Below, in pieces: positions 22,969 to 48,360 of a stretch of 64,000 nucleotides of DNA. The DNA is from Eledone cirrhosa (taxonomy: Eukaryota): positions 344,534,001 to 344,598,000 of the forward strand of contig OZ024743.1 in NCBI GenBank assembly GCA_964016885.1, in the 5' to 3' direction. The notes beneath the pieces are model-generated. The model worked only from the letters and a program-made list of their open reading frames with translations. It was not told where the DNA came from and ran no database searches. The position numbers and the translations under genes are program-made. How positions within the stretch are numbered: position 1 is the stretch's first letter; every line of letters begins with the position of its first letter.

Positions 22969-23078
22969 GGTAATAGGAAAATGGTCAAGACCCGACGGCA
23001 GAGCTCAAGCCGTTCAGGTCCAGAAATAGCCGTCAAAACGGCTTGTGCTCTGCCGTCGGGGTATTGAACATTTTCCTA
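22969..23078. mobile_element. Family B fold-back element (copy 1)
   Basis: TAGGAAAA..CCCGACGGCAGAGCTCAAGCCGTT / GTCCAGAAATAGCCGTC..CGGCTTG.GCTCTGCCGTCGGG..TTTTCCTA. Confidence 0.8.
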
Positions 23079-23254
23079 TATATATATATATATATATATA
23101 TATATATATATTGAAATCTCCGTGATGTCCAGCAGACAACTGAAGAAGGGATTGTCCCCCGTTTGTACTTTCCTTATATTTTTAACTACACTTTATCAAG
23201 TAACCACACAGCTCCCTGTTTCTTCCAAATTCTTATATATATATATTTATATGA

Positions 23255-23560
23255 TGATAATGATGATGGCTGCAGCTCGATTTCGAGTAATGCCATCGCT
23301 GAATACTTGGGGATGAGCATCACGAACGTGGCATTGTAGTCCTGCTTGGGGCTTGCCTCTGGCCAACCATGCCATGTATCACAAAAAAAAAAAAAAAATG
23401 TCACATATCAAGGGCTACCTCTGCTTGAAGCATTTTTAAGAGAAGAAAGGCTTTACACGGGGCCAATCCCATTCTCTGAACATCGAATGCATTTGCCGAA
23501 AAAGTAGAATCTATATTTTTCTCATGACAGGCAGAACCCAACGAAACTTGAGTACCTGTT
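23255..23560 (-). mobile_element. Probable 3' fragment of an RTE-related retroelement
   Basis: Minus-strand end GCGATGGCATTACTCGAAATCGAGCTGCAGCCATCAT resembles the 3' end of the intact RTE (54608-54645). The 5' boundary is uncertain. Confidence 0.55.
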
Positions 23561-24429
23561 GCAATTATTATATATATATATATATATATATATATATATA
23601 TATGTGTATATGTATGTGTGTGTGTGTGTGTGTGTGTGTGTGTGTGTGTGTGTGTGTGTGTGTGTGTGTGTGTGTGTGTGTGTGTGTGTGTGTAGTGTCG
23701 TGTTTTGGTTGCTTGAACCATTTTGGAAATTGTTAGAAACATAGTGTCTTTTTAGAAGTCTACAGCAATGAAAATGTGAGTAAATGTTTAAACGAACGAT
23801 AATAAATTGTTGGAAATATTACATTGCCGGCGTTTAATTAAGCCTGATGTAAAACTCGCCGCAGTTGTTGCATTGGATACGGTATACCAAGTATATCAAT
23901 AGGTACATGTCAAAATGCGAATGATGCAGTTTGTCAGCGTGCATTGGTTTCGTTCGTCTTCAAGCCATTTACTTTAAAGTATTTCCGCAGTGAAGGCTGT
24001 AGTTGGATAACTACATATTCAGTCCCTCCCTGTGGATGCCCTTGCAGATAGCGACGGTTATCTTGACAGTGAAGTGTGGCAACTTCAGGGAAGAGGCCTT
24101 GAGAAAGTTCTTACACTTCTTGGACTTAGGGTCCTGAAGACAACTTGCAGTGGATGCTGGATATGCGTCAGCCTGTAGCACCTGTATGAAATGTGTAATG
24201 TGCATGGCCCGGTCCTTCGTTTTGCTTCATATATAACTGATACACGTGAGTTCATTCTAATATTTCCTCCCACATATCTCCCGTTTACAAATCCTCTCTG
24301 GCTCAAGTCTTTTTTCAGCTTCCCATTGATTTTACTTTTCTAACAGAGTTGACATTTGACCACAATTTTGTTTTCTCTATATATTGTTTGTCTTTTCATT
24401 GTCTCCCCTTTTCTTTTCTCCCTCAAATA

Positions 24430-24620
24430 ATTGTCTCTAGTTATGGCACAAGGCCAGCAATTATCACAGTGCATTACTGGTACTTTATTTTATCGACCCC
24501 GTAAGGATGAAAGGCAAAGTTAACCTCGGCGGGATTTGAACTCAGACCGTAAAGGACCGTAACTCTATGCTGCAAGGCATGGTGTCCGACTCTCTACCGA
24601 TACTGCTAATCCATCGCCCT
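24430..24620 (-). mobile_element. SINE with an 18-bp TSD
   Basis: TTTTCTCCCTCAAATAAT at 24414-24431 and 24621-24638. Confidence 0.9.
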
Positions 24621-24862
24621 TTTTCTCCCTCAAATAATACTCTTTTCTTTCTGTGTTTTTCTTTCCGGTGAAAGACTAACGTTTGAAAATTTAAGACTAT
24701 TTTATTACTTCTGTTAAACGTTAAATGAGTATATCGTTATTATAGCATTTTGTAACATGTACTTCTATAATGGTGTTTGATTTTTGGATTGTATATATAT
24801 ATATATATATATATATATATATATATATATATATATATATATATACATATATTTATATATAA

Positions 24863-25351
24863 TAGCAGGTGGATTTCTGCTAGCATGTGTAGTGTGTATA
24901 TTGATATTATACACAAATATATATACATGTAGATATGATACATCAAATAAAATCGTAATTGACAATATACACATAAATTGAACGAAGACTGTGTTACACT
25001 GTCTCCTGTAATCAGTAATGTAAGCCATGATACATAAAAAAAAGACGATATTATATATAAACTGCATTAGGAGAAAATTAGCGACGGAAATATATGCGAT
25101 ATTTTTATAAGTGTTATAATATAACGGCCGCTAACCGGAAGTGTTGACATTTGAACATTTTAAAGAAGTGAATTTTAAAGATATTTAAATAAGCTATAAA
25201 ATATATTTAATCAACAGCCACGAGATTTAGCACATGAATTATGTAATATTCATTCATTATTTATTCAAAGTAATCCAACTTATTTTGCAAACGGGGTAAA
25301 AAAATATATTCAGGACACAATCCCGCACTCCTTTCTTTATTATAGTTAAGA
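24863..25351. repeat. Dispersed ~500-bp repeat, copy 1 (possibly a non-autonomous Helitron-like element)
   Basis: Colinear with 39300-39837; right end TTTATTATAGTTAAGAT / CATTATATATTAGAT. The class assignment is weak. Confidence 0.65.
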
Positions 25352-46117: not shown

Positions 46118-46773
46118 AAGAAGGTAGTACAGTATAATCGAATCTCTGGTTGCGGGCAAGCTAACGAATGCTGTCGGGAAGTGCAGCCAAAAGCACTCAA
46201 TAAGGAATTTTACCTTAGAGTTATATCATTACGTTTAGACAGCTATGAAAATTGAAGCCAGCAACCGAAATGCGAGCCGTTAGGACTAGAACAACGAAAA
46301 AACCAACTAAGAGAAATCTTTGACAATTACCTGGACCAACATGGGTATATTACATAATATAATATAACATCTCCACTAGGTTTCTGTAAATCCCAAATCA
46401 ACAAAATCCATTTGCAGGGGCCTGCAAGTTAATAGGTCTTTGGAAGATAGAACAGTGGAATTTACTTCTTCAACAAGTGTTCGTTCTGCCGCCGCTGGTT
46501 GCAAGAACTAGTAGTAAACACTGCTAGTAGTTACGTGGTTTCTCCGAAGGGAGGTAACCCACGGTTTTGGCGGTCAAATTCAAAATTTGACAAAGGATTT
46601 AAATCCTTTACACAAACCGAATAAAAGCTCTCAACTAGATGTTATTAAACAAACATAAACAATTAACCAATCAATAGAATTCTCTAATTAAATTAATCGA
46701 TTAATCATTAAGTCTAGGAGATAATAATACAAGAAGGTAGTACAGCATAATCGAAGCTCTGGTTGCGGGCAAG
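46118..46773. mobile_element. ~655-bp element bounded by 43-bp direct repeats, inside (TA)n
   Basis: AAGAAGGTAGTACAG(T/C)ATAATCGAA(T/G)CTCTGGTTGCGGGCAAG at 46118-46160 and 46731-46773. Confidence 0.7.
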
Positions 46774-46781
46774 ATATATAT

Positions 46782-46972
46782 ATAATTGTTTCTACTTTTG
46801 GCACAAGGCCAGCAAATAACCAGTGTATTACTGGTACTTTATTTTATCGACCCCGTAAGGATGAAAGGCAAAGTTAACCTCGGCGGGATTTGAAGTCAGA
46901 ATGGCAAGGGCCGTAACTCCATGTGTCAAAGCATGGCGTCCAACCCTCTACCGATATTGCCAATCCACCGCC
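46782..46972 (-). mobile_element. SINE
   Basis: Full consensus match, inserted in a TA tract. Confidence 0.9.
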
Positions 46973-47805
46973 GTATATATATAATAAAAGTAACACAGAT
47001 CACCGGTTTAAATACAGCGTCTCCCGGCCAGCGTCTAGCTCACTCGATGAATATGGCGAATTGCAGTAATACAAATTAATAAAAGAATAATCAGTGTACG
47101 AACCTTTGATAATTCTTTTATTATTTTGCATTCACCGCTCCACCAATAGTTTTAATGAGCTTTACCAGGGTGATACTTTATCCTGTATTATCTGACATAG
47201 TGTATTATGTGCCTTTCTCTCATTGCTATGATTTATAAAGAGCTCGGTCTCTCTTCCTTGAGCTCCATGGAACATAGGGATTATTGTGAGTTTTAACTCC
47301 CCCTTTTAATTTGATGTATTTGGGCTCCTAATTTATTAATTAATATAGTTTAGCCTTTGTCTACTTGATTGGCTATTTTTAGTGACCTAATAGCTTATTC
47401 AAGCTACCTTGGGCTAACTGATTCACACTGCCCACTAGTTGGCACCATGTGCTTATCAGAAGTTAGTTATTTATTCTCTCTCTCTCTCATATGCGAAGTT
47501 CATAAAATTCAGGGAAACCCGCTGAGAAGCTCCTGTATATATTATAACTTCGCAGGTGATCCCATCAAATGAAATTTTGGTTTTGCTTCATCAACAAGTC
47601 TGATTAGCAGTTTTGACTGGAGTCGGGATTATAATATTAACATACATCCTGTGACAAAGATCTGTGAAACGGTTGTAAATGTGTATAATCAATAAAGACC
47701 TTAATGCGAAACCTCGTTTTGTTCTTCATATAAACTCTCTTCCATAGAATAGAGTGTTGATTTTAGTACCTTCTTCAGTAAACCACTCATCTACTGAATC
47801 ACTTA

Positions 47806-47909
47806 TCATATTTCCCGGCGCCGAAGACACTTCGTCCTCGAGGACGCATGGTAGATTTTTGAGACTTACTTTAGGAAAGAATTAGCGTCTTCGATGTCGG
47901 GACATACGG
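47806..47909. mobile_element. pogo/Tc1-type MITE, second copy
   Basis: TA|TCATATTTCCCGGC..GTCGGGACATACGG|TA; homologous to 30457-30623. Confidence 0.7.
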
Positions 47910-48141
47910 TATATATATATATATATATATATATATATATATTAAAAATAAGACTCAAGTTGCATTTTCGATTTCATCTTTTTCTCTTTATACTTTCACT
48001 CGTGTAGGACACCTCGGTTATTTTTCATTTTGTAAAAAAAACCTCACTTTCTAATATATATATATATATATATATATATTTATATATATATATATATATA
48101 TATATATATATATATATATATATATATATATATATATATAT

Positions 48142-48360
48142 ATAGGAAAAAGTTTAATCCCGACGGCAGAGCTCAGGCCGTTCGACGGCTATTTCTGGAC
48201 TGGACCATAACACACCAGAGTACTCAATACTTAGGGCAGTAGAGTGGGAAATAGGAAAAAGTTTAACCACGACGGCAGAGCTCAAGCCATTTCGACGGCT
48301 ATTTCTGGACTCTGGTGCGTTATTGTCCATCCGGCTCCTTACCACACTTCCTTCGTTATA
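48142..48360. mobile_element. Family B tandem-plus-inverted composite
   Basis: Two direct copies, each ending CTATTTCTGGACT, then an inverted segment; inside (TA)n. Confidence 0.85.

What the first reader, a model, noticed from the sequence alone, without database searches (positions are those of the whole stretch)
22969..48360. Family B: ~140-nt element with a recurrent breakpoint at CTGGACT and fold-back/template-switch products
Seven loci lie in or beside (TA)n (22969, 31279, 37589, 43739, 43937, 44503, 48142). The strand ..GCCGTTTCGACGGCTATTTCTGGACT stops at the same point at ~43800, ~44652, ~48200 and ~48311. It then continues as an inverted copy or jumps to a direct copy. Outer ends vary but fall at TA dinucleotides (TTTTCCTA|TA, CCTAAGTA|TA). 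The copy at 43937 reads through the breakpoint, and 31279 has a different centre. Inference: cDNA reaches a defined RNA 5' end (AGUCCAGAAAUAG..) and switches template, while priming starts internally by TA microhomology. The unequal arms argue against a cut-and-paste MITE. The inferred RNA has a half-hammerhead pattern GAAA-CGGC..GCCG-UC, but I find no CUGANGA.
Basis: partly seen in the sequence, partly recalled or inferred. Interest (0 to 1): 0.75.

Follow-up and report, generated by a model that had tools for sequence, protein, structure and literature searches.

The report
Penelope stubs ending inside their ribozyme
These short mirror-image inserts in TA repeats are end-pieces of a very abundant Penelope-type jumping gene, likely made when both cut DNA strands copy its RNA from two fixed points up to a predicted capped start that lies in the middle of the element's predicted self-cutting ribozyme.

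Summary
The seven loci are real but are not a separate 140-nt element. They are terminal pieces of a ~3.1-kb Hydra-clade Penelope-like retrotransposon (RT plus GIY-YIG endonuclease); a 26-mer from it has 15,421 exact genomic matches.

The hammerhead is complete. Its 5' half (UUGAAAA, the known U3:A8 variant) lies just beyond the breakpoint.

Of 169 sampled arms, 143 do not read through. Of those, 65 start at -1..+2 of AGTCCAG and 130 within -5..+8, so this is a hotspot trimmed by end-joining. An untemplated G precedes +1 (16/81 versus 0/87 at a control site), as expected for a capped transcription start inside hammerhead loop II.

Outer ends are not random: two main sites (+61, +141), both at UAU. 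In 56 of 61 head-to-head pairs one arm is long and one short, and either arm can be the trimmed one. This favours priming from both target strands over single-strand fold-back.

The architecture, tail and ribozyme variant are published. This scan has reached the same twin-priming and cap reading on other DNA. In my searches, a start inside the ribozyme is the new part. There are no RNA data, and activity is untested.

The parts
22969..23014 (-). left arm, about +67 to +18 (RNA-sense numbering, +1 = A of AGTCCAG)
   Evidence: read by eye
23018..23076 (+). right arm, +2 to short end, then (TA)17
31281..31339 (-). short arm of a diverged subfamily, ends at +2
   Evidence: by eye
31340..31490 (+). 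long arm of the same subfamily, starts at +1, ends in (TA)n
   Evidence: by eye
37589..37644 (-). solo short arm, inner end at about +3 to +6
43742..43800 (-). short arm intact to +1
   Evidence: by eye; an extra G defeated the strict parser
43801..43876 (+). arm +7 to +84 (minor end at the third UAU); longer than its intact partner, so not a copy of it
43947..44111 (-). long arm reading through +1 to about -25
44114..44224 (+). short arm that begins upstream of the ribozyme and holds the whole motif
44119..44211 (+). type I hammerhead motif: stem I 44119-23/44207-11, core UUGAAAA 44124-30 (U3:A8), GAAA 44185-88, predicted cut after 44206; this copy is degenerate (stem III lacks one G)
44165..44169 (+). 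TTAGT initiator-like motif (consensus recalled); A44167 = +1, inferred capped start inside loop II
44506..44652 (-). long arm intact to +1
44653..44703 (+). short arm from +7
48145..48201 (-). short arm intact to +1
   Evidence: by eye
48202..48311 (-). direct copy +112 to +1, joined through TGGAC microhomology (template jump, inferred)
48309..48356 (+). inverted tail piece +92 to +140 (long end), ACT microhomology, then (TA)n

Best explanation
The loci are short terminal insertions of a Hydra-clade Penelope-like retrotransposon, likely formed when both strands of a cut (TA)n target prime reverse transcription at two fixed UAU sites of the element's RNA and both copies run off a predicted capped 5' end inside the hammerhead's loop II. 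SHOWN: the element continues upstream into a ~0.8-kb 3' UTR and an EN/RT ORF, and downstream of +140 into a 5' UTR and an ATG at about +236; two main outer ends at UAU; long/short pairing; 5' ends clustered at +1; an untemplated G at -1. INFERRED: (1) transcription starts at TT-A(+1)-GT in the upstream partial copy, so the RNA begins with only the 3' half of the ribozyme and a whole one occurs only ~3 kb later. (2) The endonuclease nicks both strands of (TA)n, and target ends in ATA pair with UAU at +61 and +141, one site per strand, probably by a dimer. (3) Priming in the 5'-proximal copy gives 60- and 140-nt run-off cDNAs whose 3' ends are joined head to head after 0-10 nt of trimming, or jump to another template. 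Priming in the downstream copy gives the read-through arms (26 of 169) and full-length copies. (4) Templates were mostly uncut RNA.
For: Contiguity with the ORF: L005, L011 and L015 run from the window sequence through the 3' UTR into EN and the RT thumb. 72 exact pLTR-ORF junctions, with an ATG downstream in most of the 30 read. Hydra motifs (against PMC8557442 section 11). 5' hotspot: 130 of 143 non-read-through arms within -5..+8; in a second TA-targeting family all 30 sampled copies read through their hammerhead and 14 of 30 run at least 1,485 nt. Cap sign: 14 of 15 one-base spacers are C/G among the first 50 of 1,282 both-intact pairs (p=0.001). G before +1 in 16 of 81 direct (TA)n joins against 0 of 87 at control site +12 (Fisher p=4e-6). 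Read-through copies have T at -1 in 98 of 100 and G in 0. An untemplated 5' G is a known cap sign for L1 (PMC9341517 passages). Two primers: 56 of 61 pairs long+short against 48% expected (p=2e-13); long arm more trimmed in 16, short arm in 18, equal in 14. Both arms are of one subfamily (1.24 mismatches against 3.38 shuffled, 58 pairs). Both ends are followed by TAT. In vitro, a PLE extends both strands from two start sites bounding the tail and uses uncut RNA (PMC11167929). Only 2 of 99 tail-bearing arms start at the cut site +41/+42.
Against: No RNA evidence was obtained. The hotspot is broad: direct (TA)n joins at about +8..+12 are about as many as at +1 (371 vs 406 raw matches), and many spacers carry 1-5 templated upstream bases. 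The commonest junction with a non-T at -1 (TATTTC|AGTCC, about 39 of 100 listed, counted by eye) is not explained by a cap C. The control holds many arms that start a few bases before +12, so it is imperfect. An untemplated C could be added at any RNA end, capped or not. 14 of 30 junction copies read through +1, about six of them near-identical. No base-pair covariation in 15 hammerhead copies. The sample was anchored on an exact 26-mer, which favours young subfamilies, and comes mostly from C1. No intact ORF was seen (longest stop-free stretch 338 aa among 30 ORF-bearing loci). One versus two RNA molecules is unresolved (shared rare core variants 8 vs 2.4 shuffled, maximum 9).
Confidence: 0.72

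Rival explanations
1. +1 is a defined stop but not a capped start: the RT stalls at the small hairpin or a bound protein in loop II, or the RNA is processed there; twin priming otherwise holds.
For: The predicted fold puts a 6-bp hairpin across -3..+3. The cluster spreads to +8. No transcript data.
Against: The untemplated G sits exactly before +1. The hairpin is AU-rich, and the RT would first have to pass the stronger stems III and II. TTAGT is kept while the loop varies between subfamilies.
Confidence: 0.12
2. One cDNA folds back on itself or self-primes (the first reader's reading; self-priming on an antisense template is proposed in PMC3846280).
For: Common junctions can be drawn as hairpins with 3-, 4- or 6-nt loops. 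The arms share a subfamily. Stem II is itself an inverted repeat, and a few pairs turn near it.
Against: A copied arm cannot be longer than its template, yet the trimmed arm is the long one in 16 of 34 asymmetric pairs (also window 43742-43876). 1,282 pairs keep both arms to +1, some with 0-1 spacer bases. Long+long and short+short pairs are 1 each of 61.
Confidence: 0.08
3. Long head-to-head insertions later collapsed by deletion between inverted repeats, leaving short palindromes.
For: Long inverted pairs exist (L167, L005), and long palindromes are unstable (recalled).
Against: Solo arms join (TA)n or other element parts at +1 with an extra G. Deletion has no reason to stop at one base. In the second family, none of 30 sampled copies stops at its hammerhead.
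Confidence: 0.05
4. An independent small element (MITE or retrozyme-like ribozyme RNA) mobilised in trans.
For: High copy number and an inverted-repeat shape in (TA)n.
Against: The sequence is collinear with a PLE ORF on both sides. Arms are unequal. No tandem units bounded by the cut site were seen.
Confidence: 0.02

Closest known systems
Hydra clade of C-terminal EN+ Penelope-like elements, e.g. Hydra-1_Obim (PMC8557442; section 11, passages, supplement hits)
   Same: DKT, RW[R/K], CxCx5C linker, CxxC and CxH, no internal CCHH, (TA)n target, hammerhead near the 3' end; the protein is alignable by eye to Hydra-1_Obim
   Different: A different family: two DNA motifs and the N-terminal peptide are absent from that supplement. 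Unit ~3.1 kb against 2,507 bp. U3:A8 core with a ~50-nt stem II/loop II instead of a canonical core. pLTRs present.
General PLE insertion structure: partial tandem pLTR, adjacent inverted 5'-truncated copy, tail at one end (PMC8557442, PMC3846280, PMC2377424; passages)
   Same: All three are seen
   Different: The tail is ~80 nt, not 30-40. Most insertions are 60+140-nt stubs. PMC3846280 explains head-to-head repeats by self-priming, which these counts do not favour.
Anolis Poseidon PAc in vitro (PMC11167929; parts 1-2 of 4)
   Same: Both strands cut and extended, two internal start sites bounding the tail, hammerhead near the ORF start, uncut RNA used, predicted dimer
   Different: PAc starts at a site without homology to the target and shows no strand difference. 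Here both sites are UAU, matching ATA target ends, and the two target ends nearly always use different sites.
PLE hammerheads, including the U3-A8 variant of Schistosoma Cercyon (PMC4209133; parts 1-2 of 4)
   Same: Type I topology, U3:A8 core, G10.1-C11.1, palindromic loop III (GAGCUC)
   Different: A 4-5 bp stem III, a long loop II, and an inferred transcription start inside loop II
L1 twin priming (recalled; only a search listing of PMC12016303 seen)
   Same: Both target strands prime on the element's RNA and the products are joined as an inversion
   Different: In L1 the two copied parts do not overlap. Here both arms usually cover +1..+60, which needs strand displacement or two RNAs.

Membership tests
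EN+ Penelope-like element | single ORF with RT and C-terminal GIY-YIG EN | tested here: met
   RT motifs (YRDD) and EN in order in broken copies; ATG to stop 2.1 kb in L135. Homologue P0002 hits Pfam GIY-YIG at E=4e-4, below the curated cut-off; two fragments of this element had no Pfam hit
EN+ Penelope-like element | partial tandem forming a pLTR | tested here: met
   14 of 30 junction copies have upstream 3' UTR sequence
EN+ Penelope-like element | inverted 5'-truncated partner and tail at one end | tested here: met
   61 pairs, 56 long+short
Hydra clade | DKT; RWK; CxCx5C linker; CxxC and CxH; no CCHH | tested here: met
   SDKT in 8, CxCx5C in 24, CxxC in 17, CxH in 23 of 30 partial loci; RWR instead of RWK in 5; one C in the EN core
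Hydra clade | (TA)n insertion | tested here: met
   TATATA follows most 3' ends
Hydra clade | RT phylogeny within Hydra | not tested
   No tree built; reference proteins were seen only in a supplement
Hydra clade | generally <3 kb | tested here: inconclusive
   Unit about 3.1 kb
Type I hammerhead ribozyme | core 3-9, GAAA, UH and three stems | tested here: met
   UUGAAAA in 44 of 72 copies, position 7 the most variable (the search pattern allowed A/G there). MFE gives the three-way junction in 2 of 3 other copies, z -2.4, -2.1, -0.8. No Rfam hammerhead hit
Type I hammerhead ribozyme | covarying stems | tested here: inconclusive
   0 two-sided changes in 15 close copies, 94% of cells paired
Type I hammerhead ribozyme | self-cleavage | not testable with these tools
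   No RNA data; only 2 of 99 arms start at the cut site
MITE / TIR transposon | fixed terminal inverted repeats of equal length and a matching transposase | tested here: not met
   Unequal arms; partner ORF is RT-EN
Non-LTR retrozyme | non-coding tandem units each with a hammerhead | tested here: not met
   Collinear with an ORF; tandems include the coding unit

The most novel reading that the evidence does not exclude
The promoter splits the ribozyme. The RNA starts with the substrate half of a hammerhead and carries the enzyme half only 3 kb later, so the two ends can assemble a hammerhead in trans (the halves cofold into stems I-III at -27 kcal/mol). That would let the element decap and release, or circularise, its own monomer only after full-length transcription, while a protein dimer hands one fixed start site to each target strand. 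This would give PLE hammerheads a function.
Probability: 0.15. Interest if true: 0.75.

Novelty: new variant of a known kind. Interest (0 to 1): 0.5.

Why it matters
How Penelope-like elements insert, why they form head-to-head repeats with a tail on one side, and what their hammerheads do are stated open questions (PMC8557442, PMC11167929). This family gives base-level predictions from thousands of genomic copies: the start site, two priming sites, one site per target strand, and UAU/ATA pairing. Each can be tested by 5' RACE and an existing in vitro assay. It also shows that abundant short palindromes in TA repeats can be run-off products of a coding element rather than MITEs, and that searches for CUGANGA miss such ribozymes. 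The element class and its shape are known, and this scan has inferred twin priming and cap-marked stubs several times elsewhere, which limits surprise.

Tried and rejected
Rfam scan: only sub-threshold hairpin and repeat hits, no hammerhead. Pfam and PDB searches with element fragments: no hits. Metagenome scan for related loci: 37 pattern matches, none confirmed. Sequencing runs: no RNA holder listed. Laying contigs of two runs of one sample showed the same ends in TA repeats; these are not independent of the genome and say nothing on RNA. Strong-stop transfer idea (cDNA jumps from +1 to a ribozyme-cut 3' end): no scar, G at -1 in 0 of 100 read-through copies, so not adopted. Collision of two RTs on one RNA: tail-only arms do not pile up at +61 (11 starts in +17..+55, 11 in +59..+97). 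Gapped alignment gave false '-7' starts and was replaced by the strict walk. First guess of Neptune clade: dropped, the motifs fit Hydra. Covariation: none. One recalled paper on dimeric PLE hammerheads is not held. PMC13000458 and PMC13282606 passages did not bear on the question.
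Full report
OBSERVATION. The window lies in a 3.0-Gb genome; the animal group is not established by any search. All seven loci are present, and the four named stops end exactly at CTGGACT (43800, 44652, 48201, 48311), while 44086 reads through. A 26-mer of the core has 15,421 exact matches in the genome against 0 for the reversed control. 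I number on the inferred RNA strand with +1 = A of AGTCCAG; subfamilies differ by up to 2 nt downstream of +45.

WHAT THE ELEMENT IS. The best genomic matches mostly continue past +1 (part of that output was cut from view). L005, L011 and L015 run without a break through an AT-rich 3' UTR into GIY-YIG and RT-thumb coding sequence. Thirty loci fetched with the thumb region hold RT and EN pieces; none is intact (longest stop-free stretch 338 aa). On the other side, 72 exact matches join +140 to a leader, with an ATG at about +236 in most of the 30 read. In L135 the ORF spans 2.1 kb and the 3' UTR 0.8 kb, so the unit is about 3.1 kb. The motifs SDKT, RWR, CxCx5C, CxxC and CxH and the lack of an internal CCHH match the Hydra clade as defined in PMC8557442 section 11. 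The protein is alignable by eye to Hydra-1_Obim, but it is another family with another hammerhead. Nineteen unnamed longer homologues are 32-58% identical. Pfam and PDB gave nothing for two fragments and one fragment respectively. No tree was built.

THE RIBOZYME MOTIF. Read-through copies carry ACCCC-UUGAAAA-G...stem II...C-GAAA-CGGC...GCCG-UC-GGGGU. The core is the U3:A8 covariant of C3:G8, already reported for Schistosoma PLEs (PMC4209133, parts 1-2 of 4). The window holds one full but degenerate copy at 44119-44211. UUGAAAA occurs in 44 of 72 collected copies and position 7 varies most (the pattern tolerated this). The predicted fold gives the three-way junction in 2 of 3 other copies. Fifteen copies show 94% pairing but no two-sided change, and Rfam has no hammerhead hit. 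Activity is therefore unshown. +1 lies in loop II. Only 2 of 99 tail-bearing arms begin at the predicted cut, which agrees with uncut RNA being the template in vitro (PMC11167929).

INNER ENDS. I sampled 646 kb in 89 sequences: 28 loci and 54 stretches around the first listed exact matches on C1, 6 stretches beside the window, and the window; L049 and L052 were dropped as overlaps. Of 169 arms, 26 read through. Of the other 143, 65 start at -1..+2 and 130 within -5..+8, with side peaks at +5 and +7. In a second TA-targeting family from this window all 30 sampled copies read through their hammerhead and 14 of 30 run at least 1,485 nt, so the hotspot is family-specific. A third family is mixed: 13 of 30 rows stop near its TTAGT, by eye.

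THE EXTRA G. Three counts point to an untemplated G before +1. Among the first 50 of 1,282 pairs with both arms intact, 14 of 15 one-base spacers are C/G and 3 pairs have no spacer. At direct (TA)n joins, G precedes +1 in 16 of 81 loci (C 5, A 4, T 56; duplicate rows removed), against 0 of 87 at control site +12 (p=4e-6). Read-through copies have T at -1 in 98 of 100, C in 2 and G in 0. These counts were made by eye on the first 100 listed rows. Such a G is a recognised cap sign (PMC9341517 passages). TTAGT resembles an initiator (recalled), and D. virilis Penelope is transcribed from within its pLTR (PMC2377424 passages). Against a single sharp end: joins at about +8..+12 are nearly as many as at +1 (371 vs 406 raw matches); many spacers carry a few templated upstream bases; about 39 of 100 non-T junctions are TATTTC|AGTCC, which a cap C does not explain; and 14 of 30 junction copies are tandems that read through +1, while 5 start at +1..+5.

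OUTER ENDS. These fall at about +60 (87 arms) or beyond +110, mostly +140 (79), with 3 between. Both main sites, and the minor +84 end in the window, are followed by UAU in the RNA and TATATA in the genome, so target ends in ATA can pair there. Of 61 head-to-head pairs, 56 have one long and one short arm (48% expected, p=2e-13). Among the 48 such pairs without read-through, the long arm is the more trimmed in 16, the short in 18, and they are equal in 14. A self-primed copy cannot exceed its template, so two separately primed cDNAs are needed. Both arms come from one subfamily, but rare shared variants are too few to say whether one RNA or two was copied.

MECHANISM. Shown: the anatomy and the counts above. 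Inferred: a partial-tandem source is transcribed from +1. The RT-EN protein, probably a dimer as predicted for PAc, nicks both strands of (TA)n and primes one at +61 and the other at +141. Near the RNA's 5' end both cDNAs run off at the cap, often gaining a C, and are joined head to head after slight trimming, or jump to another template as at 48201. Priming in the downstream copy gives read-through arms and, rarely, full-length copies starting at +1..+3 beside an inverted partner (L167, L174). Because the start is in loop II, the 5' copy cannot self-cleave in cis. I put this at 0.72; the identity as a Hydra PLE end is near certain. Rivals: a non-cap stop at +1 (0.12), self-priming as proposed in PMC3846280 (passages; 0.08), later collapse by deletion (0.05), an independent MITE or retrozyme (0.02; bioRxiv 10.64898/2026.07.22.740005, part 1 of 5).

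WHAT IS KNOWN. Inverted partner, tail, (TA)n targeting, two start sites and the U3:A8 core are published. I found no paper placing a PLE start site inside its hammerhead or showing one start site per target strand (searches; open-access library only; one recalled paper not held). Of supplements I saw only search hits in that of PMC8557442; those of PMC11167929 (genomic ends, fig. S2) were not opened and may bear on the strand claim. Earlier notes of this scan report twin priming and cap-marked stubs in this and other genomes, and none matched this sequence. I had reached my reading before opening them. One note prompted the Hydra check and another the shared-variant test.

VERDICT. A real and abundant feature: a new family of a known clade, with an unusual start site inside its ribozyme and unusually clean statistics for two-ended priming. 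Interest 0.5.

Noticed in passing
window 48380-48490 (- strand, core at 48480): Canonical CUGACGA hammerhead of another TA-targeting EN+ PLE family (1,193 exact 27-mer matches); two 3' ends about 80 nt apart, 5' ends scattered over more than 1.5 kb.
   Followed up: partly
window 45915-46060: Head-to-head fold-back of a third family (21,614 exact 28-mer matches) with a hammerhead-like motif whose core reads CAGAAGA; two 3' ends; 13 of 30 rows stop near TTAGTTTCAG, one with an extra G. No ORF link tested.
   Followed up: partly
window 43428, 36820, 11278 (- strand): Further hammerhead-like motifs with canonical cores.
   Followed up: no
window 43869-43944: Eight bases of the +84 end are mirrored on the far side of the (TA)30 run, before the long arm at 43947; unexplained.
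   Followed up: no
L194/L195 (G000:C1:4180805-4183867): An arm of this family is joined directly to an arm of the third family within one insertion, suggesting a jump between RNAs of different families.
   Followed up: no
L151, L157, L162, L169, L173, L177: Near-identical tandem junction copies of one young subfamily (core UUGAGAA, extra stem III pair); best place to look for an intact element.
   Followed up: no
L156, L171, L175, L176, L180: Leader or ORF-start pieces joined directly to a copy beginning at +1, consistent with template jumps at the RNA end.
   Followed up: partly
window 58740-64000; 15568-16608; 4218-4581 and 19528-19855: 27-bp tandem array of about 199 copies; 61-bp array of 17 copies; tandem copies of a SINE-like repeat (label recalled).
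   Followed up: no
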